From Spirochaetota bacterium (GTDB taxonomy: Bacteria > Spirochaetota > UBA4802 > JAFGJZ01), in assembly GCA_023396615.1 (NCBI GenBank), contig JAEWVM010000009.1, positions 966-64,965 of the forward strand: 64,000 nt of DNA. The letters are read 5' to 3'. Positions 17,501-64,000 of this stretch are shown here, piece by piece. The notes under the pieces were generated by a model. It was given only the letters and a program-made list of their open reading frames with translations, was not told the DNA's origin and did no database searches. Every line of letters begins with the position of its first letter. Position 1 is the stretch's first letter. The translations under genes were made by a program, and so were the position numbers.

Positions 17501-17505
17501 TTTTT

Positions 17506-17536
17506 TAAAAATCCGCCTAACGGCGGATTTTTTTAT
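17506..17536 (+). terminator. Rho-independent terminator after the MIPS gene
   Basis: AAAA-ATCCGCC-TAAC-GGCGGAT-T7. Confidence 0.75.
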
Positions 17537-17590
17537 TTTATAAAACCAATTTATTATTGTATTATACTTCGCCCGATATCACATAGAAAA

Positions 17591-18649
17591 ATGAATTCAA
17601 TACAAAGCAATAAAATAGGAATAGCTTTGGGAAGCGGCGGATCAAGAGGGATTTCCCACATTTCCGTTCTCAAACAAATATACAATCTCGGAATCCGTAT
17701 TGATTATGTATCAGGTGCAAGCATGGGGGCAATAATCGGTACCGCGTTCTGTGCCGGAAAACTTGAAGATTTTGAAAGAATTCTTCTCCGATATTACAAA
17801 GAAGACAGGATATATCCGCTAGCAGGATTTGCAGCTTCCTCATCGGGAATTGCAGATATCGGCAAATTCATGAAAATCTTCAAACGCATTATATTTCCAT
17901 ATTCACGAATCGAAGATCTTCCTATACCGCTCTCGATAGTCTGTACAGAGTTTCAAACCGGAAAACCCGTTGCATTCACTCATGGCGATATCTTCACAGC
18001 AATCCGCGCTTCAGTTTCCATTCCCGGTGCTCTGGTTCCCGTAAAATACGCCGGAACCTATCTCATAGACGGCGGAGTTTCGAATGCGGTTCCTGTTGAT
18101 GTTGCGAGGAAAATGGGCGCAGATAAGGTAATTGCTGTTAACATCAATCCGCTTAATAAAATGAAAAACCGGCCGGAGTTCATTGCCGATTACTCAACAT
18201 TCCTTGAAACATCAATGAATTCCTTAATAGACGGTCTGATTCCTTATGATGCCGTCCAGACAAGAAAAATCAGTCTGCCTGCAATTAAGAAAAATATTCC
18301 TGCAATTATTCAGTTTGTAAAAAAAACACTCGGAATGATAAAATATGCTTATGTTCATATTTTCAAAAACGAAACCCGTGATATAACTAAAAAAGAAGTT
18401 TTTTTTCCGAAAAAAAACAAACGTCTTCCCAATATTGTCGAAATTCTTTGGCAGACAATTGACATAATGCAATCAGTTAACACCCATGCGTTTTTTGAAA
18501 AATATAAACCGGATGTGATAATAGAACCTGATGTAATAGAAATATTTCCCTTTGATTTTACGCAGATTCCGCAGATTTTGTCTGCCGGAGAAACAGCTGT
18601 TTCAGAAAAAGAAATCGAATTAAAACGGCTCATGAATGAGAATCTTTGA
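17591..18649 (+). CDS. Patatin-like phospholipase
   Basis: GIALGSGGSRGISH (oxyanion GGxRG), GASMGA (GxSxG nucleophile), and DGG catalytic Asp motif. Confidence 0.8.
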   Translation: MNSIQSNKIGIALGSGGSRGISHISVLKQIYNLGIRIDYVSGASMGAIIGTAFCAGKLEDFERILLRYYKEDRIYPLAGFAASSSGIADIGKFMKIFKRIIFPYSRIEDLPIPLSIVCTEFQTGKPVAFTHGDIFTAIRASVSIPGALVPVKYAGTYLIDGGVSNAVPVDVARKMGADKVIAVNINPLNKMKNRPEFIADYSTFLETSMNSLIDGLIPYDAVQTRKISLPAIKKNIPAIIQFVKKTLGMIKYAYVHIFKNETRDITKKEVFFPKKNKRLPNIVEILWQTIDIMQSVNTHAFFEKYKPDVIIEPDVIEIFPFDFTQIPQILSAGETAVSEKEIELKRLMNENL

Positions 18650-19394: not shown

Positions 19395-19733
19395 ACTCAT
19401 TTTCGGAATTATTTAGAGCGCAGTAATTCATTTTAACTTATGAAACCCTAAACATCGATACATCGGGGGAAGAAAGTCTTACCTTAATAAATAATATTCC
19501 ATGATTCAATCCGCAGCTCATTCCGATTAAGAAGCAAACCTAGATTGAGAGCTTACCTGATAGACGGAATTAGTAAAACAATTGAAGTAAAATTCATTCA
19601 AGATTGATCATGTTCAAATATATCATATAAAATATGGGTAAACAATACTTTTGAATAAAGCATCCGAAACGTTCAAAACATATGTATAAACTAATTGACT
19701 TGTAGCACTTTTTATTATTGTCTGACCCAGTAT

Positions 19734-20546
19734 ATGAATATTCTCAAAAAACATCTCTTAAACATTATCGGAGCTTCAGTACTCGCTTTGAGCATATCGG
19801 GTCTTATTACCGGTACCGCCCGGATAGTCATACATCCAGGCGAAAAAACCAGACAGACAGCGCCCAAAGTATTTCAGGCAGAAAATACGGAAAAAATCAC
19901 CGATTATAATTTCATACTGAATTCAAATTTTTTTCAACTTTCCACCGCTCAAAGCTCAGAAAACGTTCAATCGGCTTCACCTGCAAATTTAATACTGCTG
20001 GGCACGGTTACAGGCTCACCTTCACTGGCCAGAGCAATGATAAGATCCGCTTCAGAAAATAAGGTCGAAATATTCAAAATAGGATCTTCAGCATGGGGCT
20101 ATACTCTCGTCAGAATTTTGAAAACCAAGGTATTATTGAAATCAGGTTCCAACGAATTTGAACTCGACATGCTTAAACAAGAAGGTTCCTCATCCGGTCC
20201 GCAATCAGGATTTCAGCCTGCAACAAAAAAGACAATAAGCAAAGCTGAACTTCTCACAAAAATTCAGGGCAATATGGACAATATGCTGAAGGGAATGAGA
20301 GCCGGACCCTACCGTGAAGACGGTCAGATCAAAGGGTACAAGATTATGGGACTCAGTAAAGACAATATGCTTTATGAACTTGGAATCCGTCAGGGAGACA
20401 TCATTATGAGAATAAATGGTCATCCAATTGACAGCACTCAGAAATTGTTTGAACTTTGGCAGAAGCTTCCGCAGGAGCCGAAGGCACTAATTGACATTAA
20501 ACGCGGAAATGAAACAACGACTCTCGATTATACTTTTTCGAATTAG
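19734..20546 (+). CDS. gspC: Type II secretion system protein C (GspC) with C-terminal PDZ domain
   Basis: N-terminal TM anchor; C-terminal PDZ (GYKIMGLSKDNMLYELGIRQGDIIMRINGHPI). First gene of the gsp cluster. ATG at 19734 chosen over the track's 19695. Confidence 0.55.
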   Translation: MNILKKHLLNIIGASVLALSISGLITGTARIVIHPGEKTRQTAPKVFQAENTEKITDYNFILNSNFFQLSTAQSSENVQSASPANLILLGTVTGSPSLARAMIRSASENKVEIFKIGSSAWGYTLVRILKTKVLLKSGSNEFELDMLKQEGSSSGPQSGFQPATKKTISKAELLTKIQGNMDNMLKGMRAGPYREDGQIKGYKIMGLSKDNMLYELGIRQGDIIMRINGHPIDSTQKLFELWQKLPQEPKALIDIKRGNETTTLDYTFSN

Positions 20547-20552
20547 GTGAAT

Positions 20553-30446: not shown

Positions 30447-31306
30447 ATAGAATAAACGAAATCTTCAGAAAAATATTTCAATATGCAAAAAATCTTTACG
30501 ATGATGCAAAGGCGCACCCTTTTTTTAAACGCTACGTTGTTTTAACCTGCATATTGACAGCAGTATTCACTCTTATTCTTTTTCCGGTTGATACAATAAT
30601 TTTAAAAGTATTAAGAGATGCCGAAGGTAAGTCTTTTCAATCCGCCGAAGTTTCAAATCTTAAAGCTTCTTTATTCGGCGATATTTCAATTGATTCAATG
30701 AAAATCAATCTCCGGTCACGTGAAGAAGTTTCGATCAGCAAGTTTGATTCAACAATATCAGTTTTCTCTCTGATTAGGGGCAATGCTGACGGGGAAATCA
30801 ACTCCGAACAGTTTTCTTTTTCGTCGCCTAAGTTCAAGTTTACATCAAAGATAAAACTGATTCCTGATGCGGAATACAGCACCAAAACAGGTATTTTTAC
30901 AAACGGCACTCTAACAGTGAAATTAACCAACTCACTGCTGGAAGGATTATCAATTGCCGGATTTAATATAAAACCGGCAAACATTGAATCTGTAAACGGA
31001 GAAATCCTTTTTCAGGACAAGAAATATAATATTAAGGTCATTAAAATTGACGGTCAGTCGCTCAGGGGAACCATAACAGGAACAATTATTCCGAACGAAA
31101 ATAATTTTTCGCTCTCCGTTCTCGACATCAGCTGTTCATTTGATCCCCAGTCCGGAATGTTCGACGATTACCGTATGCTTATCAACTATCTTATAGATAA
31201 AGACAGCGGGAAAATACTCATCAAACTTAAAGGAACAATTGCTAATACTGAAGTAATTACTCCAAAAATGAATATGCCTCAAATGGAAGCAAAAGATGAC
31301 AAATGA
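30443..31306 (+). CDS. gspN: GspN-like protein
   Basis: Single N-terminal TM then a beta-rich periplasmic region; last gene of the cluster; overlap with gspM. Confidence 0.4.
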   Translation: MNRINEIFRKIFQYAKNLYDDAKAHPFFKRYVVLTCILTAVFTLILFPVDTIILKVLRDAEGKSFQSAEVSNLKASLFGDISIDSMKINLRSREEVSISKFDSTISVFSLIRGNADGEINSEQFSFSSPKFKFTSKIKLIPDAEYSTKTGIFTNGTLTVKLTNSLLEGLSIAGFNIKPANIESVNGEILFQDKKYNIKVIKIDGQSLRGTITGTIIPNENNFSLSVLDISCSFDPQSGMFDDYRMLINYLIDKDSGKILIKLKGTIANTEVITPKMNMPQMEAKDDK

Positions 31307-52778: not shown

Positions 52779-53453
52779 CTACTGATTATCAACACGGAAA
52801 TAGATGCGCTTCCACTTATATGATCCGTCCTTGTAGAACGATGTAACGTAAAAATCCTGTTCAGTAGCTTTTTCGATGACATCAAGGGCTATCTTGTTTG
52901 AATTATCCGCGATCTCAATGTCGTTATCAGCCGTAAGAATAAGCTTTACCTTTTCATCCGTTACTGAAGAAATATTATCATAAACTTTCTCGTCGGTAGA
53001 ATCGTATTTCTGCGAATCCATGTATTCGAGATATCCGTAATAATCGAAATAATCACCAAACTCCTGTATCGATGCCGAAAAAAAATCAGCGCAGGGATAA
53101 ACAATCACGTGAAAAAAACCGGCAGCTTTTTCACCCTGTCCGACTCTTTTAACGAGTTGGCGAAGCATGGAAAACTGGGTATTTATTATCAATTCATTCA
53201 TTATGAATTTAATATGGCGTTTTTTCATCCATTCAAAAGAATGAATCATCTTTTCGATCCGCGCTTTAAAATCCTTATAATGAATTTCGCCGAGGCCCAC
53301 CACAAAGATATACGGCCCGATAATTCTGCCGTTTTTGTCGTAAGATGCTTCAACTATGACGCGGTTTTTTTGTTCGTTAAGCTTGCGTCTGTATTCGAAG
53401 GGAACAAGTTCGTTAAAATCGCTGATCTCTTTCATAATGCTATTTAAAGCCAT
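52779..53453 (-). CDS. Hypothetical protein
   Basis: 224 aa; acidic, Tyr-rich C-terminal half; no confident domain. Confidence 0.35.
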   Translation of the reverse strand: MALNSIMKEISDFNELVPFEYRRKLNEQKNRVIVEASYDKNGRIIGPYIFVVGLGEIHYKDFKARIEKMIHSFEWMKKRHIKFIMNELIINTQFSMLRQLVKRVGQGEKAAGFFHVIVYPCADFFSASIQEFGDYFDYYGYLEYMDSQKYDSTDEKVYDNISSVTDEKVKLILTADNDIEIADNSNKIALDVIEKATEQDFYVTSFYKDGSYKWKRIYFRVDNQ

Positions 53454-53834
53454 ATTTTTTTATTAGTCAATTCATTAATCAATTTAGACCGCAGATAAAA
53501 AAAAGCGAGCCGAAGCCCGCCAACAAAATATTAAGAAGGGTGAAGATGTAACAGCCGATCCGATGTCCCGGCGCTATTAGAAAGGGGATTATAACGCGCC
53601 GGAACAATCGGCTATCAATGAGGACATAATAAGCGATATAATAAAACTGTCAATTAAAATCCGTCCGGTTGGTATTTTTTATTATATTTTTATCTTTTTT
53701 TCTATTTTTTTCGAACAACCTTTGTATTGCAGGGTTTATTACATGATAATTGTAATTATAACCGTAAAACACAGTTTTTCATGAAACTGACGCTTATATA
53801 ATATTTTTAATTGAAAAATGAGGTATCTCAGGAG

Positions 53835-54710
53835 ATGATTGTCATTATGAAGAACAGCAGTCTTCAAAAAAGCCGTGATACAACAGATTCGTCTCTCACA
53901 TGGTATCTTGACAGAATAAACAAGATTCCGATGCTGACAAGAGAGGAAGAAGATCTCTATGCCCGTTTGGCGAAAAACGGCGATCCGGAAGCCAAAAACG
54001 TTCTGGTAAAATCAAATCTTAGATTTGTCGTATCTATAGCAAAAAAATATCAGACTAACGGAATATCACTGCTAGATCTCATCAACGAAGGAAACATGGG
54101 TCTTATCAAGGCCGCCGAAAAATTTGATCCGGACAAAGGATTTCATTTCATATCATATGCAGTGTGGTGGATACGTCAGGCTATAATGCTTGCGATTTCA
54201 CAGAAAACTTCGCTGATCAGAATTCCGCTCAACAGAAGCGCCGATCTTCAAAAAGTCGAAAAAGTTCATAAATCTCTCGAATCTAAACTTCACAGGGAGC
54301 CCACTGCCGAGGAAATATCCGAAGGCCTCGACATGAACAATGACCAGCTCAACTACCTGAAAAATATACCTCAGGAATTCGTTTCTCTTGATGCGGCAAT
54401 GAGCGATTCTGACGATACACCGATAGTCAACATGATCGAAGATGACAGGGGAGATTCACCGGATAAAGAAATTTTAAACCAGACATTATCAAACGAAATA
54501 AAAAACATTCTCGAAACGCTAACCAAATCAGAAAGAGAAATCATCAAAATGCGTTTCGGTCTCGATGAACATAAACCAATGTCGCTTCAGCAGATAGGAG
54601 ACAAATACGGTCTCTCCAAGGAACGCATACGCCAGATTGAAAAAAAAGCTCTCAGAAAACTGAATGCATCCCCTATCCGCCATAACCTCGAAGGATTTAT
54701 GGGCGAATAA
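53835..54710 (+). CDS. RNA polymerase sigma factor, sigma70 family (regions 1.2-4 present; RpoS-like or group 3)
   Basis: Region 2 ...NLRFVVSIAKKY...DLINEGNMGLIKAAEKFDPDKGFHFISYAVWWIRQAI..., and region 4.2 ...LQQIGDKYGLSKERIRQIEKKALRKL. Start ambiguous: TTG at 53811, ATG at 53835 or 53847. Confidence 0.8.
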   Translation: MIVIMKNSSLQKSRDTTDSSLTWYLDRINKIPMLTREEEDLYARLAKNGDPEAKNVLVKSNLRFVVSIAKKYQTNGISLLDLINEGNMGLIKAAEKFDPDKGFHFISYAVWWIRQAIMLAISQKTSLIRIPLNRSADLQKVEKVHKSLESKLHREPTAEEISEGLDMNNDQLNYLKNIPQEFVSLDAAMSDSDDTPIVNMIEDDRGDSPDKEILNQTLSNEIKNILETLTKSEREIIKMRFGLDEHKPMSLQQIGDKYGLSKERIRQIEKKALRKLNASPIRHNLEGFMGE

Positions 54711-56750
54711 TCAGCTTCCGTGTTTTTCCTTCAAATATCCGTATATTTCATCCTGAGATCGTGTTTTAACCTCTCCGCCTCGGTAATACTTGTTTGAAAG
54801 CGATTCATCGAGAATTCTCGATTTAATATTATCATTCCATGATATCTCAAGAATATCGCGGAGCTCATTTCTTATTGAACTATCATAAATAGGAACGGCT
54901 ACCTCGATCCTGTTATCAAGATTTCTGCTCATTAGATCTGCCGAAGAAATATAACAAAGCTCATTGCCGCCGTTTGAAAAAAAATATACCCGTGAATGTT
55001 CAAGATACCGGTCAATAAGTCCTCTTGCTTCGATATTTGCAGTCGAACTGTCAAGCACAAGCGAGAACATACCGCGAACGAGAAGTCGGACTCTGACACC
55101 GGATTCTGCCGCACGGCGGATATATTTTATCATTTCACGGTCAACGAGATTATTTATCTTGAAAAATATTTCAGCGTCAACACCGCTTTCCGCATTACGT
55201 ATCTCATTCTTGATAAGTCTCTTTAATTCATCTCGCATGTTAAAAGGAGCCACCAGCAGATTGCGGTAAGAATGATGCCTGAAATTCATTACAAAAAAAT
55301 CAAAAAGTTCTGATATCTCGGAAGTTATTCTCTTATCCGATGTTAGAAGATAGTGATCGGTATATTGACGGGCAGTTTCTTCATTAAAGTTTCCCGTACC
55401 TATTATGCAGTAATTTTTAAACGCATTATTCTCGCGTCTGGTAATCATGCATAGTTTAGAATGAACCTTAAGGCCTGCAATCCCGAGAATTACCTTAACG
55501 CCCTCCTCTTTCATGAGGTTTGCCCAGTAGATATTATTGTCCTCGTCAAAACGTGCCTGAATCTCCATGAGAACCGTAACTTTCTTTCCGTTTTTGCTAG
55601 CATTGATGAGCGCATTCGAGATACTCGAATCCTTTGCCACCCTATAAAGCGTTATCTTGATTTCGGTAACATTAGTATCCATAGAGGCTTCACGCAGAAG
55701 ATCAATAATCATGTTGAAAGAGTTATACGGAAAATGAAGCATCACATCGCGCTTACGTATTACGGATATTATGCTTGATTCGGAAAGCAGTTCCCTGTGC
55801 ACAATCGGCTCACGTCTGATGTCGGAATCTTCGGAAGGAAGAATATTCGGAAACCGCATGAAGTCCTTGAAGTTGTGATATCTTCCGCCGGGTACAAAAG
55901 TTTCATTGCGCTTGAGATTCATTTTTTTGAGAAAATACGAAAGCATTTCTTCCGGAACGGTGGAATCATAACTAATGCGCACCGGAGCTCCGGAATGACG
56001 TTTCTTCAATGACTTGCTGACTTTATTAAGCAGTGACTCTCCCAAATCATCGCCGAGATCAAGCTCAGCATCGCGCGTCATTTTGATATCATATGCTTCA
56101 AAAGTATCATATCCGAACGGCGAGAAAATATCGCTCAAACCGAAACGGATGACGTCATCAAGAAAAATAACACATTTCTTTTCACCGTCCCTCGGCAGAA
56201 CGATAAAACGCGGAATGAGTCCTGAAGGCACTTCTATAAGACTGTATTGGTCTTTCTTTTCGATTGAATTTGAAAGTTTTACCATAAGATAAATTGATCT
56301 GTCGCGAAGAGGCGGCAGAACTATATTCTTGCCAAGCATCACAGGAAAAATCTTGGGTCTGACGGTTTCATTGAAATAAATCCTGATGAACCGCTTCTGT
56401 TCCTCGTTAAGATTATTTTCATTCATGAAAAAGACATTACGTCTTTCGAGCTCTGTTATGATGTTTGAAAAGCATGTATCAAATTCGAGATGCCGCGTCC
56501 ACATTATATCCTGGATCTCTGCGAGTATCTTCTTCGGATCACCGCCCATAAGAGGATAAGCCTTTTTGCCGAGAGGCGCAAATCTGTTAAGTGTCGCGAC
56601 CTTAATTTCAAAAAATTCATCGAGATTTGAAGAATATATTCCAAGAAATTTGATTCTCTGCATAAGCGGAACGCCGGGATCATTCGCTTCCTGAAGAACC
56701 CTTGCATTAAATGATATCCAGCTTATTTCTTTTGGTCTATAGTCTTTCAA
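54711..56750 (-). CDS. ppk: Polyphosphate kinase 1
   Basis: N-domain, head domain, and two PLD-like C domains (...VHSKLCMI...). Its stop abuts the sigma-factor stop. Confidence 0.85.
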   Translation of the reverse strand: MKDYRPKEISWISFNARVLQEANDPGVPLMQRIKFLGIYSSNLDEFFEIKVATLNRFAPLGKKAYPLMGGDPKKILAEIQDIMWTRHLEFDTCFSNIITELERRNVFFMNENNLNEEQKRFIRIYFNETVRPKIFPVMLGKNIVLPPLRDRSIYLMVKLSNSIEKKDQYSLIEVPSGLIPRFIVLPRDGEKKCVIFLDDVIRFGLSDIFSPFGYDTFEAYDIKMTRDAELDLGDDLGESLLNKVSKSLKKRHSGAPVRISYDSTVPEEMLSYFLKKMNLKRNETFVPGGRYHNFKDFMRFPNILPSEDSDIRREPIVHRELLSESSIISVIRKRDVMLHFPYNSFNMIIDLLREASMDTNVTEIKITLYRVAKDSSISNALINASKNGKKVTVLMEIQARFDEDNNIYWANLMKEEGVKVILGIAGLKVHSKLCMITRRENNAFKNYCIIGTGNFNEETARQYTDHYLLTSDKRITSEISELFDFFVMNFRHHSYRNLLVAPFNMRDELKRLIKNEIRNAESGVDAEIFFKINNLVDREMIKYIRRAAESGVRVRLLVRGMFSLVLDSSTANIEARGLIDRYLEHSRVYFFSNGGNELCYISSADLMSRNLDNRIEVAVPIYDSSIRNELRDILEISWNDNIKSRILDESLSNKYYRGGEVKTRSQDEIYGYLKEKHGS

Positions 56751-57622
56751 GAGTTTTTCCCCTGAGAAGACGAATCTTTAAAACTATTTCCTTCATCAAG
56801 CAGACGCTGAAGAATTTCTTTTTTATTTTTCATTTTCATAATCTTTTCATTCATCTTCTCTTCTATCTTTGCCATTTTTTTCATGACCTTGTCTTTCTCT
56901 CGCTCTTCCTTTTCTCTTTCTTTTTTTTCTGTAAGTAAAAGCGATTTCTTTAAAAGTTCAATGCTTCGAACTGTCACGACGCTTGAAGAATCAAGAATCT
57001 TTCGGGCAATTTTACCGGCCTTGAGAGACAAATCATCCGGCGATATATTTTTTGAATTTTCAAAAAATGAATCAATCATCTGGGCCGATTCATCCCTCAG
57101 ACTGCGTATTATATTTTTGCCGAACTTGTCAAGATCATCATTTATAAATTTATAAAATACAAAATGCCCGCTGTTTTCTTTGATGTCCACGAATTTTTCG
57201 GAATCAAATTCAAACATGACGCATGAAGCAGTCGGAAGAGAAAAAACAAAATCTCTGCAGAAATATTTTGCAAGCTTTTCAAGAAGCGGATTATGCCCGA
57301 CAATGCAGACATTATTGTATCTTTCGGAAATTGTTTCAATGCAATGCAGAACCGCTTCCATATCCTGAGAATAAAGGCTTTCATTGATCTGAACATTATC
57401 ACGGGAAAAGCCTGACTCTTCCGCTATTATAACCGCACTCTCAAACGCCCGCAAAGCTATACTCGAATAAAAACCGTCAATAGCACATGAGTTATCTTTT
57501 TTGAGGTTTTCCGCAAGCAAATAGATATTTTTTCTGCCTGAAGTCGAAAGCAAACGCGCATAATCGGTTTCGTCATTATCCTTAACAGCTTTCCCATGAC
57601 GAACAAGAAAAATTTTTTTCAT
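56747..57622 (-). CDS. Histidine-phosphatase-superfamily (SixA-like) protein with K/E-rich coiled-coil C-terminal extension
   Basis: LVRHGKA (RHG motif) ...VGHNP... in the first ~160 aa, then EKKEREKEEREKDK... tail; ATGA overlap with ppk. Confidence 0.6.
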   Translation of the reverse strand: MKKIFLVRHGKAVKDNDETDYARLLSTSGRKNIYLLAENLKKDNSCAIDGFYSSIALRAFESAVIIAEESGFSRDNVQINESLYSQDMEAVLHCIETISERYNNVCIVGHNPLLEKLAKYFCRDFVFSLPTASCVMFEFDSEKFVDIKENSGHFVFYKFINDDLDKFGKNIIRSLRDESAQMIDSFFENSKNISPDDLSLKAGKIARKILDSSSVVTVRSIELLKKSLLLTEKKEREKEEREKDKVMKKMAKIEEKMNEKIMKMKNKKEILQRLLDEGNSFKDSSSQGKNS

Positions 57623-57623
57623 A

Positions 57624-58649
57624 TCAGTCTCCGAAACTTGTTCCGAGAAGACGCGCTTCCTTGACTAGCGGATCATCTTTCTGAACAGTTTTAATTTTTC
57701 CTGCAACTTCCTTTAATGGAACCGCAACCGTATCAGTATCCCGAAGAGAAGTCATAAAACCGAATTTTCCGGAATGAGCCAGTTCCGCGGCATGTGCGCC
57801 GAGGCGCGTGGATATTACACGGTCCATTGGAGAAGGAGATCCTCCGCGCTGAATATATCCCAAAATGGTTTCTCGTGTTTCAAGACCGGTATATTCCATT
57901 ATTTTTTTAGCGATATAATGACCCTTAGATTTTTTTGGTTTAGGCGTGTCAATCCCTTCGGCAACCACTACAATCGAATACGGCTTACGCTCATCATATC
58001 TTTTGGTAAGAACACTGCAAATGGATTCCATAGTGTACGGAATTTCCGGAATCAGAATAACATCACCGCCTCCGGCAATACCGGAATAAAGAGCAAGCCA
58101 TCCGGCATGATGCCCCATCACTTCAATTACCATAATGCGCTTGTGAGAATTCGCAGTCGTATGAATTCTGTCAATCGCTTCAGTCGCGATGTTAACGGCT
58201 GAATAAAATCCGAAAGATACGTCCGTACCCCAGACATCATTATCAATAGTCTTCGGAACGCCTATGATATTGAGACCTTCCTTGTGAAGCTGATAGGCCG
58301 TCTTCATGGTTCCGTTGCCGCCGAGGCAGATTAAACAGTCAAGACCAAGCTCTTTGTAGTTCTCCTTAATAGTCTGAACCTTGTCGAGAGTGCCGTTGTC
58401 GTTTTTGAACGGTTTTTCCCTTGAAGTGCGCAGAATGGTTCCGCCCTCAGTTAGAATTCCTGAAAGAAGATTTTCAGTAAGAGTTACATACTCCCGGTCG
58501 ATCAGCCCCCTGAAACCGGAACAGATTCCGATAACTTCCATGCCGTATTCGACAATGGCGCTTTTTCCGACACCGCGTATAGCCGCATTCAGTCCGGGAC
58601 AATCCCCTCCTGCAGTCAGAATTCCGATACGCATGCCTTTACTTTTCAT
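57624..58649 (-). CDS. pfkA: 6-Phosphofructokinase
   Basis: MRIGILTAGGDCPGLNAAIRG, ...GGNGT..., PKTIDNDV, ...MGHHAGW... Confidence 0.85.
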   Translation of the reverse strand: MKSKGMRIGILTAGGDCPGLNAAIRGVGKSAIVEYGMEVIGICSGFRGLIDREYVTLTENLLSGILTEGGTILRTSREKPFKNDNGTLDKVQTIKENYKELGLDCLICLGGNGTMKTAYQLHKEGLNIIGVPKTIDNDVWGTDVSFGFYSAVNIATEAIDRIHTTANSHKRIMVIEVMGHHAGWLALYSGIAGGGDVILIPEIPYTMESICSVLTKRYDERKPYSIVVVAEGIDTPKPKKSKGHYIAKKIMEYTGLETRETILGYIQRGGSPSPMDRVISTRLGAHAAELAHSGKFGFMTSLRDTDTVAVPLKEVAGKIKTVQKDDPLVKEARLLGTSFGD

Positions 58650-58766
58650 AAGTTCCTCGATTGAAAAAGTCGTAATTATTGTAGATCTGCCGCGCAGAAA
58701 ATGTCAAATCAATAGATTGAGGCGGGTATAAATTTAAAATTAAGACTGAACATAATCTTAACAAAA

Positions 58767-59888
58767 TCAGAATTTGAAGTGACGTTTTATGCTCATCGCT
58801 TCAAAAGCACAGACTTCATGACAACAGTAACAGCGAATGCACTTGGATAAATCAACCTTCAAATGTTTGCCTTCTTTCGATTGTCTGACGGAAATAGCCT
58901 GAGGAGAACATATCGAAAAACACTTCATGCACAAAACGCATTTTTCTCCTATGGAAGGAGCCGGTATAAAAACATTACGAACGAGATTATAAATTCTACG
59001 GTTAAGAATTTTCCGCAGAAAAGCGATGTCTGTGACTTTTTCAACGAGCTTAAAAGATGAAGGCTTCAAAGATACGGCATCATCACCGGATATTTCGACT
59101 TCAAAGCCGTCACGTCGCTTTTTAGCTTCATAAAGAATCGGAATATCATCAGATTTGTAGCCGATAATTTCCGAACAAACGCAGTCCAGTGCCAGCGGAT
59201 CGAAAGATGCACCGATAAAATTAGTGCTGACAGGCGAACCGTTTCTCGGACCGTCACCTTCCATCGATACGACAGCATCCATAATGGCGAATGATGGAGC
59301 AACCAGATCATGAAGATCAACGATCATTCCAGCGAAATACTTTCTTTCGACGAAACGAAAATGAAATTTTGATTTTTCAAGACCGCTGATAACACCGAAA
59401 ATGTTTTTAATGACGCCGGTATAATACATCTGCTGATGAGTCTTAAGCTTTGCCATGGAAACGATTATATCATTATCAATAACTGGTTTCGCTATATTGA
59501 ATTTTCTGGTAACTTTGCCGTTAGGCGCATCGACAGAAACGGTGTCCTTGAAATCTACAATTTGAACGCCGAGTCTGCGCGCGGCTTGCGCGATTCCGCA
59601 TTTTTCCGCAACACTGTAAACCGATTCAACAGCCGGAGAATCTCCAACACTAACGGTAAAACCGTAATCCATAAAAAGAGAAGCGGCAGCCTCAAATACA
59701 GCCGGATGTGTCGTAACTGCTTCATCAGGATGCGCTCCCATAAGCATGTTGGGCTTGAGAAGAACTCTGCTTCCTTTTGATTTTAAAGAATCAATGCCGC
59801 CGGCAAGATTAAATGTTTTATTGAGGGCTTCTTTAACATCTTTAAGATTATATGTATCAAGCCTTGAAAGTGCAACGACGCTTTTCAT
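58767..59888 (-). CDS. DUF362-domain protein fused to 2x[4Fe-4S] ferredoxin
   Basis: DUF362-like N-terminus (...RVLLKPNML...), C-terminal CVLCMKCFSIC...CIRCYCCHEVC. Confidence 0.6.
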   Translation of the reverse strand: MKSVVALSRLDTYNLKDVKEALNKTFNLAGGIDSLKSKGSRVLLKPNMLMGAHPDEAVTTHPAVFEAAASLFMDYGFTVSVGDSPAVESVYSVAEKCGIAQAARRLGVQIVDFKDTVSVDAPNGKVTRKFNIAKPVIDNDIIVSMAKLKTHQQMYYTGVIKNIFGVISGLEKSKFHFRFVERKYFAGMIVDLHDLVAPSFAIMDAVVSMEGDGPRNGSPVSTNFIGASFDPLALDCVCSEIIGYKSDDIPILYEAKKRRDGFEVEISGDDAVSLKPSSFKLVEKVTDIAFLRKILNRRIYNLVRNVFIPAPSIGEKCVLCMKCFSICSPQAISVRQSKEGKHLKVDLSKCIRCYCCHEVCAFEAMSIKRHFKF

Positions 59889-59923
59889 ACTGTCAGCTTA
59901 GCAAAGAAATAATTATCTGCAAG

Positions 59924-59969
59924 ATATTTTTGCGTTACAAAATATTTTTGCGTTACAAATTTTGCGAAC
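59924..59969. repeat. Tandem direct repeat, about 2.5 copies of an 18-bp unit (ATATTTTTGCGTTACAAA)
   Basis: Copy 1 at 59924-59941 and copy 2 at 59942-59959, both exact; a partial third copy TTTTGCGAAC follows. It lies about 36 nt upstream of the DUF362 start codon on the minus strand. Confidence 0.8.
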
Positions 59970-60134: not shown

Positions 60135-62435
60135 ATGAAAAGACTCAGAATCGGCCTCCAAACTGCGAGACTGGAATACGGCTACGGTGTAAAATTATGG
60201 CAGGGAGCGCTGATTGCCGCAAAACAAAGAGATGCCGATCTAATAGTATTTCCCGGGCGCAATCTGAATTCTCCACACGGATATGATTATCAATATAACA
60301 GCATTTTCAGCTTGATGAATCTTGATAATATTGATTCGCTCATACTGATTACAACACTTATCAGCAATTACGTTAACAAAGAAGAGTTAAATAAATTCCG
60401 CATGAATTTTTCCGATCTTCCAATAATCAGTGTCGGAGCAAGAATTGAAAATACTCCCAGCATTCTCATAGACAACCGGTCCGGAATCAGAGATCTCGTA
60501 AAACATCAAATTGAAGTTCACGGCGCAAAGAGAATCGCATTCATCAAAGGACCTGAAAATAACTGGGAAGCCGACGAAAGATATCAGGCATATAAATTGG
60601 AATTAGAAGCGAACGGAATTCCTTTTGATGAAAAACTTATCGGCAACGGAGATTTTACTTCTCACAGTGTAGCTCCCGCGATTGAGAAAATATTGAATTC
60701 AAACGATCTTCTTCCTGAAGTATTTATGTTTGCAAATGATGAAATGGCAATTCATGGAATGAGGCTTCTCAGAGAAAAAGGCATAGATATTCCCGGAGAT
60801 ACTTCTATTACGGGATTTGATGATATACGTGAAGCGGCAGCACAGTCTGTTCCGATAACCACAGTATCTCAGCCGCTCGCGGAGATGATCGACCGCGCGG
60901 TAAATCTTGCTGTTGAACTTGCGCAGGGCAAAGAAACCCCTTTTGAAACAATTCTTCCAACACACGCCGTTATCAGATCATCATGCGGGTGCATTGCCCA
61001 TTGCGTAAATGACGTCGTAAATATAAGAAAAATTAATCTTCCCAAAGATGATAAATATGACATGTGCAGTCAGGTTCTCAAGATTCTTGATGAACACAAT
61101 TTTGACAACTATTCCGGCAAAAAAACAAGGCGTGCAAATGTCGAACAGATCATTCGCAAAATTATATCTTTATCATCCGGCAATAAAAACGAAACAGCCG
61201 ATGAAAGCGATATTTTTTCATTTTTCAATTATTTCAGTCGAATGCTGATGGAAGAATCTTCACAGGGACTTCAGCCGGAACATTGGCAGATTCCGCTTTC
61301 AATTCTTTCTGAGTTTGTTAATTCCTCACGTGCAACAGATATTATGCTTGATCAGTTCAGGTTTCTCGTACGCGCCTGCGCGGTTCTAACCCTTGATTCA
61401 GCGCTCAACATGCGCGTTGCGAATCAATATGAATTTGAAAGAATAATCGAACACATTCATGATTTAGAATACGATATCTCTTCTGTAGTCGATTTGAATT
61501 CTCTCATACAAATTCTCGTAAGAAAGCTACCAAGCGTGGGAATCAACACCTTCATTCTGTCAAAATATAAAACCGATTGGGAACAGAAGCGCGATGACGA
61601 ATGGTCAGGACTCCCGGATCTAAAATGCGTGGCCTCTATGTGCGACGGCCGTGAAATGAATACACTTGAACTAAATGACTGTGGTGCATTAAAGTGGATT
61701 GCATCTCCAGACAGATCTGAAAATGACAGAAGCAGGGCGTTTGTAATTTATCCCCTGTTTTTCCGCGAAAATCATTACGGAATTGCAGCCTATGAACTTT
61801 CGCTTCAAAGCGGGTTCATATACGAAAGTCTGACGACCCAGATATCAGGAGTTTTAAAACGTATATTTCTATATGACGCGAAAGACAAAGCCGAACAGGG
61901 TCTTCGGCAGGCAATGCGCGATCTCGAAATTTTTAATGCACAGCTCAGTCAGCTTTCAATAACAGATGAACTGACAGGATTGTTTAACAGGCGCGGTTTT
62001 ATGAAAATGGCAGAACACTCATCGTTTCTCGCGCGTCAAATGGGACAGCCCTCCATGCTGATTTTCGCAGATCTCGATAAACTGAAAAAAATCAACGACA
62101 CTTACGGACACGACGAAGGCGACTGGGCGATAAAAACAGTTTCCGAAGCTTTGAAAAAAACATTCCGATCCAATGATGTGGTCGCGCGTCTCGGCGGAGA
62201 TGAATTTACTGTTTTCGCGACAAATATGAAAGAAGAACTTCTTCCAAGATCTCAGTCCCGCATAAATGATTTTTTAAAACAAAGATGTACCGAAAAACAA
62301 AAGGAATATGAACTGACTATAAGCATCGGTCATGTTATCTGCCCGGTTAACGAATCACTGAGTATCGAAGAGTATATGCAGATAGCCGACAGCCGTTTGT
62401 ATGAACAGAAGAAAAAGAAACATACTGAGAGCTGA
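60135..62435 (+). CDS. Diguanylate cyclase with N-terminal LacI/PBP1-type sugar-binding domain (no HTH) and C-terminal GGDEF
   Basis: Periplasmic-binding-protein type-1 fold residues (...PGDTSITGFDDI...), then a ~250-aa unassigned region. GGDEF domain with RSND I-site and intact GGDEF. Confidence 0.8.
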   Translation: MKRLRIGLQTARLEYGYGVKLWQGALIAAKQRDADLIVFPGRNLNSPHGYDYQYNSIFSLMNLDNIDSLILITTLISNYVNKEELNKFRMNFSDLPIISVGARIENTPSILIDNRSGIRDLVKHQIEVHGAKRIAFIKGPENNWEADERYQAYKLELEANGIPFDEKLIGNGDFTSHSVAPAIEKILNSNDLLPEVFMFANDEMAIHGMRLLREKGIDIPGDTSITGFDDIREAAAQSVPITTVSQPLAEMIDRAVNLAVELAQGKETPFETILPTHAVIRSSCGCIAHCVNDVVNIRKINLPKDDKYDMCSQVLKILDEHNFDNYSGKKTRRANVEQIIRKIISLSSGNKNETADESDIFSFFNYFSRMLMEESSQGLQPEHWQIPLSILSEFVNSSRATDIMLDQFRFLVRACAVLTLDSALNMRVANQYEFERIIEHIHDLEYDISSVVDLNSLIQILVRKLPSVGINTFILSKYKTDWEQKRDDEWSGLPDLKCVASMCDGREMNTLELNDCGALKWIASPDRSENDRSRAFVIYPLFFRENHYGIAAYELSLQSGFIYESLTTQISGVLKRIFLYDAKDKAEQGLRQAMRDLEIFNAQLSQLSITDELTGLFNRRGFMKMAEHSSFLARQMGQPSMLIFADLDKLKKINDTYGHDEGDWAIKTVSEALKKTFRSNDVVARLGGDEFTVFATNMKEELLPRSQSRINDFLKQRCTEKQKEYELTISIGHVICPVNESLSIEEYMQIADSRLYEQKKKKHTES

Positions 62436-62477: not shown

Positions 62478-62513
62478 AAAGGGCATCCTATGCCCTTTAC
62501 CCGGTTTTGCCGG
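62478..62513 (+). terminator. Terminator-like hairpins after the GGDEF gene
   Basis: AAAGGGCAT-CCT-ATGCCCTTT, then CCGG-TTTTG-CCGG. Confidence 0.55.
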
Positions 62514-62763
62514 ATGCTCCGGACGCGCGTTGCGAGGCGCTATTATTTTGACATCCTGCCAAATATTGAAGCGCTTCGATGGCGGTTCTCGTAACGCCTT
62601 AGTATCAGCCTTCAGCGTACAATTTGCGTTCTTACTCTGTTTATTTATCTTTTTCTGAATTGCTTTGCCCACTTTGGATATTTTCATTAACATTCATTTC
62701 GAAATTTCATTACACGGATGAAAGCGGCATGTGTCAGGGGAATACTGTCACTGAAGAGATAAA

Positions 62764-62994
62764 TTATTGATTCCTTTCAATCTTTTGATTATTATGATTT
62801 AATTTAATATTCTTTTCTTTTTTAAATCCACCCAAATGATATATTAAGATAGCAGCATATCCTAACAATAAGATGTATATTAAATATTTTCTTATTTCTT
62901 TAACACCAAATCCTGAAATAAAACCATCAAGTATAATCAAAATGCCCATAATAATTGTATAAGCTATTAAAGTTGATATCATGTCCATCAACAT
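62764..62994 (-). CDS. Small two-TM membrane protein with holin-like features
   Basis: AAGGAG RBS 8 nt upstream; MLMDM N-terminus (three Met in five residues), two TM helices, and a highly charged C-terminal tail (KKEKNIKLNHNNQKIERNQ). Confidence 0.45.
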   Translation of the reverse strand: MLMDMISTLIAYTIIMGILIILDGFISGFGVKEIRKYLIYILLLGYAAILIYHLGGFKKEKNIKLNHNNQKIERNQ

Positions 62995-63457
62995 TACTCA
63001 CTCCTTATAATCCCGAACGGTATTCCGCCTGAAAATCTATCAATTAATTACAATTTCATCCCTGAGTTTTTAAAACTTATGCTCTTTCTGTTGCTTCCAT
63101 TTCTGCACTTCTGCGCAATAATTCATAGTATTCAGATTATCTTCATGCCCGCAATATAACATTTTACTTTTCAAATAATTACTGCGCCTATCCGCAAATA
63201 ATTTTAACCCGCTAATTCCATCACAACCTTCTACTCCATGAATGAATAAAGGAAAATGACATTGGTTTATTATTTAATTTTCATTTCATAATATTATTAC
63301 ACGTTCATTCACTTCGCTCAGTATACGCGCATATGTTCTTGTTGATATCAATCAGATCTATCCAATTTATTCGACTCTTACGGCTCCGACTATCACGTAC
63401 CAATAGGCGATTATCAAATCTTTCAGTATTTTCTTTATATCATTTTGTCTTCGTAAG

Positions 63458-64000
63458 CTACGGCAACTCATTGATATAAATCAGTCTAATATCATTTTCA
63501 TTACATCTTTCTACAACAAATGTTTCTCTGCCAGAAGATTCATAATACAAAAGCTCAACCTTCACATATTTCAGAAAACCATCTTTATCTTTTTTGTTTT
63601 CAATCATAACTTCAATAGCTTTATTTTCAAGCTTATAGCTGATTTTATTTTCAGGTAAATTTATCAATCCTATTTTTGGATAAATTGCTATTAAACGATA
63701 TAAAAGAAATCCATCCAGAACAGACGCATTAGTAATTGTGAGATAAGTTTTAAAAAAATAATCATTCTCATTCTGAGATTCCAATTGACCTTTGCTTAAC
63801 AGATATTTTTCATTATATTCTTTTAAGCTATACCTTTTCATTGAATCAATAAATTCACTCTTTCTTGGTGGCGGGAAGATACTCGTATATCCGCTGAAAA
63901 TATATCCTGTTTTATTTTTATAATTAACTTTTAGCCAATTCCCCTTTATATTATCTACGACAAGATAATCCTTAGTATTTTCAATTAATTCAAATTTTAC
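63458..64000 (-). CDS. Protein with SH3b-like domain, N-terminally truncated by the window end
   Basis: The reading frame is open from the window edge (…VVDNIKGNWLKVNYKNKTGYIFSGYTS…, an SH3b-like motif) through the 127-aa ORF in the track. The real start is beyond position 64000. Confidence 0.4.
   Translation of the reverse strand, partial: VKFELIENTKDYLVVDNIKGNWLKVNYKNKTGYIFSGYTSIFPPPRKSEFIDSMKRYSLKEYNEKYLLSKGQLESQNENDYFFKTYLTITNASVLDGFLLYRLIAIYPKIGLINLPENKISYKLENKAIEVMIENKKDKDGFLKYVKVELLYYESSGRETFVVERCNENDIRLIYINELP

What the first reader, a model, noticed from the sequence alone, without database searches (positions are those of the whole stretch)
54711..59969. Operon linking a DUF362 Fe-S protein, PfkA, a SixA-like phosphohistidine phosphatase with coiled-coil tail, and polyphosphate kinase 1
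Four minus-strand genes run in series, with overlaps or gaps of 1-4 nt between pfkA, the SixA-like gene and ppk1. PPK1 works through a phospho-histidine intermediate, so an RHG-motif phosphohistidine phosphatase with a K/E-rich coiled-coil extension (EKKEREKEEREKDK...) fused into the same transcript is suggestive. It could modulate PPK1 or serve as a polyP-granule-associated factor. The operon is preceded by 18-bp tandem direct repeats. It terminates stop-to-stop against the sigma-factor gene, with no intergenic terminator.
Basis: partly seen in the sequence, partly recalled or inferred. Interest (0 to 1): 0.5.

Follow-up and report, generated by a model that had tools for sequence, protein, structure and literature searches.

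The report
Polyphosphate operon with tailed SixA phosphatase
In an uncultured spirochaete, a phosphofructokinase, a SixA-type histidine phosphatase with an unusual 130-residue helical tail, and polyphosphate kinase 1 form one tightly coupled operon. Phosphatase-kinase neighbours are already known in other microbes, but this three-gene, tailed version recurs across divergent spirochaete lineages and I found no published study of it.

Summary
Four minus-strand genes encode DUF362/2x[4Fe-4S], PFK, a 291-aa SixA-like protein and PPK1. The pfk-sixA junction has a 1-nt gap and the sixA-ppk1 junction a 4-nt overlap. An 18-bp x2.2 tandem repeat lies upstream, and the ppk1 stop directly abuts a convergent sigma-70-family gene.

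The conserved unit is pfk -> sixA-like -> ppk1, not four genes. It recurs in six mutually divergent Spirochaetota lineages with unrelated flanks (SixA-like 25-36% identical, PPK1 51-66%). DUF362 is kept only in near-identical genomes and is separated from pfk by 117 nt containing a strong promoter-like site.

SixA/histidine-phosphatase genes next to ppk are already noted in the literature, but their function is untested. I read this as a new variant of a known kind of polyphosphate locus. The most likely role is a PPK1-partnered phosphohistidine phosphatase. A polyphosphate-directed phosphatase is a close rival.

The PFK keeps Gly104 (nucleotide type) with Lys124. Its GGNGTxxT motif fits no published donor signature.

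The parts
59920..59959 (-). 18-bp tandem direct repeat (2.2 copies; unit TTGTAACGCAAAAATAT plus 1), 31-70 nt upstream of the DUF362 ATG. The promoter-proximal copy supplies the TTGTAA of a TTGTAA-17-GATAAT promoter-like site (59940..59912).
   Evidence: Conserved in L008, degenerate in L004, L006 and L007. Function unknown; possibly an operator or a duplicated -35 region.
58767..59888 (-). DUF362 protein with a C-terminal 2x[4Fe-4S] ferredoxin domain (373 aa). It lies upstream of the core and may be co-transcribed, but it is not part of the conserved module.
   Evidence: PF04015 190.7 bits, Fer4_7 29.9 bits. Present upstream of pfk only in genomes about 92% identical (L004-L008). Absent in L030, L033, L036, L040 and L001.
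58678..58707 (-). Promoter-like site TTGACA-18-TACAAT in the 117-nt DUF362/pfk spacer. It is a candidate dedicated promoter for pfk-sixA-like-ppk1.
   Evidence: 11 of 12 matches, the best in the region; sequence. This is a consensus match only, not evidence of function.
57624..58649 (-). 6-phosphofructokinase (PFK-A family, 341 aa) with motifs GGNGTMKT (N103, G104, T108 in E. coli numbering) and PKTIDND (K124).
   Evidence: PF00365 368 bits. NF002872 ATP-dependent PFK scores 419 bits against a cut-off of 253; TIGR02483 PFK_mixed scores 398 against 430.55. Motifs.
57143..57622 (-). SixA-like protein, residues 1-160: minimal histidine-phosphatase core with R8-H9-G10, R23, R58 and H110.
56963..57142 (-). 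SixA-like protein, residues 161-220: family-conserved C-terminal extension. It consists of amphipathic helices 166-186 and 195-212 and the strand 215-218 (VTVR).
   Evidence: AF2 model, (pLDDT 85-97). Conservation of the hydrophobic and Lys columns across 44 extended homologues.
56747..56962 (-). SixA-like protein, residues 221-291 plus stop: a long helix (221-284) that is 50% charged and net +6. The segment TEKKEREKEEREKDK is ER/K-like. A heptad-patterned stretch (about residues 250-285) is compatible with a coiled coil.
   Evidence: This distal part varies within the clade and is absent in P0013, which still sits in the triad.
54711..56750 (-). Polyphosphate kinase 1 (679 aa; TTG start overlapping the sixA-like stop). 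The predicted autophosphorylated His430 lies in the motif LKVHSKL (codon 55461-55463).
   Evidence: TIGR03705 702 bits, cut-off 465.85; junction; KVHSK conserved in all PPK1s of the related loci.
53811..54710 (+). Convergent sigma-70-family (group-1/2-like, RpoS/RpoD-related) sigma factor gene whose stop abuts the ppk1 stop. It forms the boundary of the operon and is not part of it.
   Evidence: The best hit, TIGR02394 rpoS, scores 269 bits, below its cut-off of 378.7. The adjacency is kept only in close relatives.

Best explanation
Shown. pfk -> sixA-like -> ppk1 is a compact operon, with junctions that leave a 1-nt gap or overlap by 4 nt. It is maintained by selection across divergent Spirochaetota. 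The middle gene encodes a SixA-type histidine phosphatase with its catalytic residues intact. That core is fused to a structured C-terminal extension.

Inferred, and the mechanism I commit to. The tailed SixA-like protein is a partner of PPK1 made in step with it. It uses His9 to take the phosphoryl group off PPK1's catalytic phosphohistidine (His430~P). This sets how much ATP-derived phosphate goes into polyphosphate. It also sets how readily PPK1 runs in reverse (polyP + ADP -> ATP).

The helix-helix-strand extension shapes or caps the otherwise open SixA active site. The long charged helix dimerises or docks the protein on oligomeric PPK1 and/or polyphosphate.

The co-transcribed PFK is a nucleotide-dependent enzyme (Gly104 retained). 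Its co-expression ties the ATP-consuming commitment step of glycolysis to the polyphosphate/ATP buffer.

DUF362 and the 18-bp repeat are lineage-specific upstream additions.
For: - Operon anatomy.
- The triad is conserved in six lineages with unrelated flanks: the window, L030, L033, L034, L036/L037 and L040.
- The lineages are mutually divergent: PFK 65-83%, SixA-like 25-36%, PPK1 51-66% identity.
- The sixA-like/ppk1 junction is an overlap or a gap of at most 6 nt in the five related lineages with complete gene calls (gene tables); only L034 has a wider gap, 18 nt.
- A Leptospirales homologue keeps sixA-like -> ppk1 without pfk.
- E. coli SixA is a protein phosphohistidine phosphatase, and PPK1 works through a phosphohistidine (established knowledge). 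The His430 motif is conserved.
- Among 16 SixA homologues from other phyla, 5 have ppk1 within 6 kb. My rough chance estimate for one single-copy gene falling inside 12 kb of a genome of a few Mb is about 0.3%.
Against: - No experiment links any SixA to PPK1; none turned up in my literature searches.
- SixA genes also occur in polyphosphate loci without PPK1, such as the Sulfolobus sixA-ppx-PPK3-CHAD operon (PMC12995831). They also sit beside PPK2. A PPK1-specific target therefore cannot be the universal role of polyP-linked SixA.
- Stoichiometric co-expression of an enzyme with a phosphatase for its own intermediate would waste ATP unless it were regulated.
- One spirochaete has pfk -> ppk1 with no sixA-like gene. 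Two clade members, P0011 and P0014, are not next to ppk1.
- A prediction of the complex could not be run.
Confidence: 0.4

Rival explanations
1. Polyphosphate-directed phosphatase. The basic helical extension binds the polyP chain or granule. The His nucleophile then removes terminal phosphates, giving an exopolyphosphatase-like or PPX-substituting activity, or it removes polyP-derived phosphoryl groups from proteins. In this reading the enzyme acts on the product rather than on PPK1.
For: - SixA genes accompany polyP loci whatever the kinase type: PPK1, PPK2 or PPK3. They sit with PPX, CHAD, CYTH and ParA-like genes (PMC12995831; PMC8003754).
- In 44 extended homologues the extension is usually strongly basic (net +4 to +13, pI about 10). 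Lys is conserved at positions 169, 196, 200, 204, 207/208 and 211, which fall on one helical face. Many carry K/P/A-rich distal tails of up to +35.
- No ppx, ppk2 or CHAD gene is in the window.
- Histidine-phosphatase-superfamily enzymes can cleave phosphoanhydrides, for example the PPIP5K phosphatase domain (PMC11836120, PMC13573052).
Against: - In this protein the conserved extension is net neutral. The distal tail is only +6 and carries as many acidic residues as a typical ER/K helix.
- No SixA-type enzyme is known to hydrolyse polyP.
- The tight coupling in this clade is specifically to ppk1.
- Only 64 kb of the genome was seen, so absence of ppx from the genome is unproven.
Confidence: 0.27
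2. Small-molecule sugar-phosphate phosphatase paired with PFK. The model is fructose-2,6-bisphosphatase, TIGAR or Shb17, which belong to the same superfamily. The C-terminal helices would form the substrate cap that SixA lacks, and ppk1 would be merely co-regulated.
For: - The gene sits 1-24 nt downstream of pfk in six lineages; I read the gaps from the gene tables (L034, shows only the 3' end of pfk).
- The extension packs on the core, to judge from pTM 0.85, as substrate caps do in other members.
Against: - The sixA-like/ppk1 pair survives without pfk. SixA-ppk1 adjacency recurs in other phyla without pfk.
- The same PFK clade is usually free-standing.
- The best sequence and fold matches are SixA, not the sugar phosphatases.
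Confidence: 0.1
3. Generic signalling SixA. The protein dephosphorylates an HPt or NPr-type phosphocarrier, as E. coli SixA does. Its position next to ppk1 would reflect co-regulation under phosphate or energy stress, with no direct biochemical link.
For: Characterised SixA acts on ArcB-HPt and NPr (established knowledge; PMC13445646 appeared). The fold and catalytic residues are the same.
Against: - Gene order and the overlapping or near-abutting junctions with ppk1 are kept while all flanking genes change.
- No two-component or PTS gene travels with it.
- The score is below the SixA equivalog cut-off, 57.5 against 74.5.
Confidence: 0.1

Closest known systems
E. coli SixA (phosphohistidine phosphatase; PDB 1ujb/1ujc) and structural-genomics SixA proteins (2rfl, 3f2i, 4hbz)
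   Different: This protein has 291 residues against about 160. The added 130 residues form a structured extension. It scores below the TIGR00249 equivalog cut-off. Identity is only 16-23%. Its genomic partner is ppk1, not signalling genes.
Polyphosphate gene clusters containing a SixA/histidine-phosphatase gene (Sulfolobus acidocaldarius saci_2017-2021 sixA-ppx-PPK3-CHAD; 'typical' PPK1/PPK2 neighbourhoods in PMC12995831; ppk neighbours in PMC8003754)
   Same: A SixA-family gene is linked to the polyphosphate kinase gene. I reproduced this here in Bacteroidota, Latescibacterota, KSB1 and Lactobacillales loci.
   Different: Those SixA proteins are mostly short. Their loci carry PPX, CHAD, PPK2, ParA-like or Nudix genes and no PFK. 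Here the partners are PFK and PPK1 only, and the phosphatase is tailed.
Mycobacterial MutT1 (Rv2985 / MSMEG MutT1): Nudix domain fused to a SixA-like histidine-phosphatase domain
   Different: The fusion partner is an N-terminal Nudix diadenosine-polyphosphate/8-oxo-GTP hydrolase, not a C-terminal helical tail. There is no PFK.
E. coli ppk-ppx operon
   Same: It is an operon that pairs PPK1 with a phosphatase.
   Different: The phosphatase there is PPX of the Ppx/GppA (ASKHA) family and lies downstream of ppk. Here it is a histidine phosphatase upstream of ppk1, and no Ppx/GppA gene is in the window.
PolyP-granule proteins with basic helical or Lys-rich regions (CHAD 'phosins' such as PptA; histone-H1-like AlgP)
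   Same: The extended SixA family has basic amphipathic helices and K/P/A-rich tails. CHAD genes are neighbours in some loci.
   Different: There is no sequence or fold match to CHAD; Pfam finds none and the tail has no significant structural match. The window protein's tail is mixed-charge rather than purely basic.
PFK-A donor-specificity classes (ATP: GGDGSxxG; ADP: GGDGSxxI; PPi: GG(D/E)D(S/T) plus PKTIDxD; PMC11609450, PMC12203962)
   Same: The catalytic TIDND and the Gly104 of nucleotide-dependent enzymes are present. Lys124 (PKTIDND) is present as in PPi-PFKs. From memory, the actinobacterial 'mixed-group' ATP-PFKs also have it.
   Different: The motif is GGNGTxxT, with Asn for Asp/Glu103 and Thr for Gly/Ile108. 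It fits none of the three published consensus motifs.

Membership tests
Histidine phosphatase superfamily, branch 1 (PF00300) | Profile match above the gathering score. RHG nucleophile motif plus the conserved Arg/Arg/His catalytic set. | tested here: met
   PF00300 scores 30.2 bits against a cut-off of 21.7. R8, H9, R23, R58, G109 and H110 are invariant in 44 homologues.
SixA (TIGR00249 equivalog) | Score at or above the curated equivalog cut-off. | tested here: not met
   57.5 bits against a cut-off of 74.5, although it is the best-scoring family, E 1.3e-15.
SixA (structure) | Minimal fold of about 160 residues with no cap insertion and an open active site. | tested here: met
SixA (function) | Hydrolyses phosphohistidine on a protein substrate. 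| not testable with these tools
   Needs an enzyme assay.
Cofactor-dependent phosphoglycerate mutase | Match to dPGM models; cap insertion and C-terminal tail of dPGM. | tested here: not met
   NF038349 dPGM_arch scores 18.7 bits against a cut-off of 225. Fold matches to mutases are weaker than to SixA.
Polyphosphate kinase 1 | Four-domain architecture (N, head/middle, C1, C2), score above the cut-off, and the catalytic His in the C1 PLD-like motif. | tested here: met
   PF13089, PF02503, PF17941 and PF13090 are all present. TIGR03705 scores 702 bits against 465.85. H430 in LKVHSKL is conserved in all related loci.
ATP-dependent PFK-A | Gly at position 104 (GGDG) and the published ATP consensus GGDGSxxG; Gly124. 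| tested here: inconclusive
   G104 is present and NF002872 scores 419 bits against 253. However, the motif is GGNGTMKT and position 124 is Lys. The consensus is taken from PMC11609450.
PPi-dependent PFK-A | Asp at position 104 (GG[DE]D) together with PKTIDxD. | tested here: not met
   Position 104 is Gly. Only the Lys124 half of the signature is present. PPi-PFK NCBIfam models score far below their cut-offs.
DUF362 | Pfam PF04015 match. | tested here: met
   190.7 bits against a cut-off of 24, plus a 4Fe-4S dicluster domain. The function of the family is unknown.
Operon (single transcription/translation unit pfk-sixA-like-ppk1) | Same strand, minimal or overlapping junctions, and order conserved across distant genomes. 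| tested here: met
   Junctions. Six lineages. Divergence.
Operon (single transcription/translation unit pfk-sixA-like-ppk1) | One transcript covering all genes, including DUF362. | not testable with these tools
   Needs RNA data. A promoter-like site precedes pfk. There is no terminator-like hairpin in the DUF362/pfk gap.

The most novel reading that the evidence does not exclude
The pfk-sixA-like-ppk1 triad is a dedicated module for priming glycolysis from polyphosphate. PPK1 would run in reverse, or the GGNGTxxT/PKTIDND PFK clade would draw on polyphosphate directly, so that fructose-6-phosphate is phosphorylated from the polyP store when ATP is low. The tailed SixA-like protein would be the first dedicated phosphatase of PPK1's phosphohistidine intermediate and would act as the switch between polyP synthesis and polyP use.
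Probability: 0.12. Interest if true: 0.7.

Novelty: new variant of a known kind. Interest (0 to 1): 0.42.

Why it matters
SixA-type histidine phosphatases recur in polyphosphate gene clusters of bacteria and archaea. Recent papers list them as typical neighbours and explicitly leave their role open (PMC12995831 discussion; PMC8003754).

The spirochaete version is the most stripped-down case. It has only PPK1, the phosphatase and a PFK. The junctions overlap or nearly abut, and the order is conserved while the phosphatase sequence drifts to about 30% identity. That makes it a clean system for asking whether PPK1's phosphoenzyme, or polyphosphate itself, is the substrate.

It also exposes two things I found no description of. 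One is a structured C-terminal extension that defines a large subfamily of SixA-like proteins. The other is a conserved genetic link between a glycolytic kinase and polyphosphate synthesis.

PPK1 is a virulence and stress factor and a drug target, so a natural protein regulator of it would be of practical interest.

If the phosphatase turns out to be a generic enzyme, the finding reduces to a tidy but ordinary operon.

Tried and rejected
I obtained contexts one protein at a time with the look-up of encoding contigs, using all 12 look-ups.
- The profile search of the 5.8-billion-protein set with A3 did not return the distant clade members. Those came from the representatives search.
- The Foldseek afdb50 library was not available.
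- Rfam found no family at gathering thresholds anywhere in the window, and there are no tRNAs. No riboswitch or leader RNA explains the upstream regions.
- The repeat unit does not recur elsewhere in the window, so there is no evidence for a regulon motif.
- I checked whether the second His that I recalled as essential in E. coli PPK1 is present. It is Ile here and varies in all relatives, so I dropped it as uninformative.
- Considered and rejected: dPGM identity; CHAD-like identity of the tail, which has no Pfam or fold match; a PPi-type PFK, since position 104 is Gly; and a ppk1-specific origin of the GGNGT motif, since 117 of the 120 best PFK homologues have it, including a free-standing Bacteroidales gene.
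- Literature searches for a PFK-PPK1 link in spirochaetes, and for any experimental SixA-PPK1 link, found nothing.

Full report
**1. What is in the sequence**

Between 54711 and 59888, four long ORFs lie head to tail on the minus strand. Profile searches identify them as follows:
- A DUF362 protein with a C-terminal two-cluster ferredoxin domain (58767-59888).
- A PFK-A family 6-phosphofructokinase (57624-58649).
- A 291-aa histidine-phosphatase-superfamily protein whose best NCBIfam family is SixA (56747-57622).
- A complete four-domain polyphosphate kinase 1 (54711-56750).

I read the junctions directly.
- pfk ends TGA, one base follows, then the ATG of the phosphatase gene, preceded by GGAG.
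- The phosphatase stop TGA overlaps a TTG start for ppk1 (cTTGA), preceded by AGGGGA. The TTG start agrees with where the PPK1 profiles and homologues begin.
- DUF362 and pfk are separated by 117 nt. This spacer holds the best sigma-70-like match of the whole region, TTGACA-18-TACAAT.

Upstream of DUF362 there is an 18-bp tandem repeat at 59920-59959 (2.2 copies, 95% match). Its promoter-proximal copy supplies the TTGTAA of a TTGTAA-17-GATAAT promoter-like site. The unit occurs nowhere else in the window.

The ppk1 stop touches the stop of a convergent sigma-70-family gene (53811-54710), with no intergenic base.

**2. Organism and general setting**

The closest genomic matches are uncultured Spirochaetota MAGs, with 93% identity for the phosphatase (L006-L008).

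The rest of the window is ordinary chromosome: hrcA-grpE-dnaK-dnaJ, a type II secretion cluster, clpB, tex and other housekeeping genes. It has no ppx, ppk2 or CHAD gene, no Rfam match at gathering thresholds and no tRNA.

**3. What is conserved**

The phosphatase has few close relatives; a word-seeded search found 7 proteins. An exhaustive profile search then found a clade of similarly tailed proteins at 25-36% identity, inside a very large SixA-like family. I looked up the genomic context of these one by one.

- The order pfk -> sixA-like -> ppk1 recurs in L030 (P0008), L033 (P0009), L036/L037 (P0012) and L040 (P0013, annotated as Spirochaetes).
- It also recurs in L034 (P0010), a short contig that shows the 3' end of pfk and the 5' end of ppk1.
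- The genes flanking the triad differ in every lineage: TetR/CinA, GH28/ABC-F, GGDEF-EAL/unknown, TetR/DinB, and DUF362/sigma factor in the window.
- The lineages are mutually divergent. PFK is 65-83% identical, PPK1 51-66% and SixA-like only 25-36%.
- The sixA-like/ppk1 junction overlaps or leaves 0-6 nt in the five related lineages with complete gene calls (gene tables). The short contig L034 has an 18-nt gap.
- A Leptospirales homologue (P0007, 27% identity) keeps sixA-like -> ppk1 without pfk.
- One Spirochaetota MAG has pfk -> ppk1 without the phosphatase.
- Two clade members are not next to ppk1.
- DUF362 accompanies the triad only in genomes about 92% identical to the window. In three of the four close relatives aligned, the tandem repeat is degenerate.

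The selected unit is therefore the three-gene core. The DUF362 gene and the repeat are local additions.

**4. The phosphatase**

Sequence features:
- R8-H9-G10, R23, R58 and G109-H110 are invariant across 44 extended homologues. These match the catalytic set of SixA.
- SixA (TIGR00249) is the best family, E 1.3e-15, but the score of 57.5 bits is below the equivalog cut-off of 74.5. The dPGM and CobC models are marginal.

Structure:
- An AlphaFold2 model built on the 44-sequence alignment is very confident (mean pLDDT 94.6, pTM 0.85).
- Residues 161-220 form two amphipathic helices (166-186, 195-212) and a short strand (215-218, the conserved VTVR/ITIR motif).
- A single helix then runs from 221 to 284. 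The extension has no significant match among solved structures.

The extension across the family:
- In the wider family the 161-220 segment is conserved. It has hydrophobic columns at 175, 179, 183, 187, 198, 205 and 209.
- It has Lys-rich columns at 169, 196, 200, 204, 207/208 and 211. It is usually strongly basic, and many members add K/P/A-rich tails.
- In the window protein this segment is net neutral.
- The window protein's distal helix is 50% charged and net +6. It has an ER/K-like stretch followed by about 35 residues with clear heptad periodicity: 70% hydrophobic at a/d positions against 16% elsewhere.
- The distal helix is dispensable for the linkage. P0013 lacks it yet sits in the triad.

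**5. SixA and polyphosphate elsewhere**

Of 16 short SixA homologues from other phyla recovered in a species-level genome scan, five have ppk1 within 6 kb. Annotating those loci shows classical polyphosphate clusters:
- Latescibacterota: PPK2-HD-SixA-ParA-like-PPK1. The same arrangement plus CHAD appears for P0156.
- KSB1: PPK1...CHAD-ParA-like-CYTH-SixA.
- A Bacteroidota MAG: SixA-PPK1-Ppx/GppA.
- A Lactobacillales MAG: PPK2-PPK1, divergent from SixA.

This matches the literature. [quoted passage not shown] It also describes a Sulfolobus operon, sixA-ppx-PPK3-CHAD, and leaves the role of SixA open. PMC8003754 lists histidine phosphatases among the commonest ppk neighbours. I found no paper that tests any SixA against PPK1 or polyphosphate.

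**6. The PFK**

All four complete triad-linked PFKs (window, L030, L033, L036) carry GGNGTMKT and PKTIDND. In E. coli numbering this is Asn103, Gly104, Thr108 and Lys124 (alignment to GGDGS).

Published signatures are GGDGSxxG for ATP, GGDGSxxI for ADP, and GG(D/E)D(S/T) with PKTIDxD for PPi (PMC11609450, PMC12203962). Against these:
- The key discriminator, residue 104, is the nucleotide-type Gly.
- The enzyme passes the NCBIfam 'ATP-dependent 6-phosphofructokinase' model: 419 bits against a cut-off of 253.
- It is closest to ATP-PFKs among solved structures.
- Lys124, Asn103 and Thr108 do not fit any consensus exactly.

The motif is not special to ppk1-linked genes. Of the 120 best homologues (65-98% identity, many from Bacteroidales), 117 have it. 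One checked Bacteroidales gene is free-standing.

I therefore call it a nucleotide-dependent PFK whose donor preference has not been established experimentally.

**7. Mechanism**

Shown:
- A conserved operon with overlapping or near-abutting junctions.
- A SixA-type phosphatase with intact catalytic residues.
- A structured extension.
- Recurrent SixA-polyP linkage across phyla.

Inferred, with my preferred reading at about 0.4: the protein partners PPK1 and removes the phosphoryl group from the catalytic phosphohistidine (His430, conserved). This would tune polyP synthesis against ATP regeneration. The tail would provide docking or dimerisation.

The close rival, at about 0.27, is a polyP-directed phosphatase tethered by the basic extension. 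This rival explains better why SixA also accompanies PPK2 and PPK3 loci. It fits the mixed-charge tail of this particular protein less well.

A PFK-paired sugar phosphatase and a generic signalling SixA are less likely, at about 0.1 each.

The pfk linkage suggests coupling of the ATP-consuming glycolytic step to the polyP/ATP buffer. That PFK uses polyP directly is possible but unsupported.

**8. Verdict**

However, SixA next to ppk is a known and unexplained pattern.

What I did not find described is the Spirochaetota variant. It combines a tailed SixA-like protein, defining a larger extended subfamily, with a conserved three-gene pfk-sixA-like-ppk1 operon.

I classify it as a new variant of a known kind, of moderate interest.

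Noticed in passing
window 57624-58649, and P0169-P0288: The PFK belongs to a large Bacteroidota/Spirochaetota clade. Of its 120 best homologues, 117 carry GGNGT (Asn for the Mg-binding Asp/Glu103) together with PKTIDND. In the four PFKs read in full the motif is GGNGTMKT (Thr108). This fits none of the published ATP, ADP or PPi donor signatures, and the donor preference of the clade seems uncharacterised.
   Followed up: partly
L009 4357-4998; L010 2761-3504; locus of P0156: In Latescibacterota, KSB1 and a metagenomic contig, a ParA/MinD-like ATPase gene sits between the SixA and PPK1 or CHAD genes of polyphosphate clusters. This hints at active positioning of polyP granules.
   Followed up: no
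A2 (for example P0036, P0070, P0071, P0117): Many SixA-like proteins outside the spirochaete clade carry long K/P/A-rich, histone-H1-like C-terminal tails with net charge up to +35, after the conserved basic two-helix extension.
   Followed up: partly
window 53673-53709: A second 18-bp-period tandem repeat (2.1 copies, 84% match, AT-rich) lies in the divergent intergenic region between the sigma-factor gene (53811) and a 224-aa ORF with no Pfam match (52779-53453).
   Followed up: no
window 60135-62435, compared with L004/L005 1-5534: Synteny breaks immediately upstream of DUF362. The window has a LacI-type periplasmic-binding-like sensor fused to GGDEF. Close relatives instead have a Fic/MazE-like toxin-antitoxin pair and a hybrid histidine kinase with the same sensor domains.
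   Followed up: no
window 62500-64000: This segment is AT-rich (GC 27-34% against about 40%) with strongly negative GC skew. It contains only small ORFs, which I did not annotate. It may be recently acquired or non-coding DNA.
   Followed up: partly
window 16181-18649: A myo-inositol-1-phosphate synthase gene is followed by a patatin-like phospholipase gene. This is an uncommon pairing in bacteria and may relate to inositol-lipid metabolism.
   Followed up: no
window 19695-31306: A complete type II secretion gene cluster lies on the plus strand: secretin GspD, the GspE ATPase, GspF, the G-type major pseudopilin, minor pseudopilins and K/L/M-like genes.
   Followed up: no
L020 6510-8532: In an Arcticimaribacter MAG, the ppk1 gene directly downstream of SixA matches PPK1 in three separate tblastn pieces at different coordinates. 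It is either a frameshifted pseudogene or an assembly error.
   Followed up: no
window 54807-54822: A terminator-like hairpin for the plus strand (ATCGAGAATTCTCGAT followed by a T-rich run) lies about 100 nt past the sigma-factor stop, inside the 3' end of the ppk1 coding sequence. It could terminate the sigma-factor transcript within the convergent gene.
   Followed up: no
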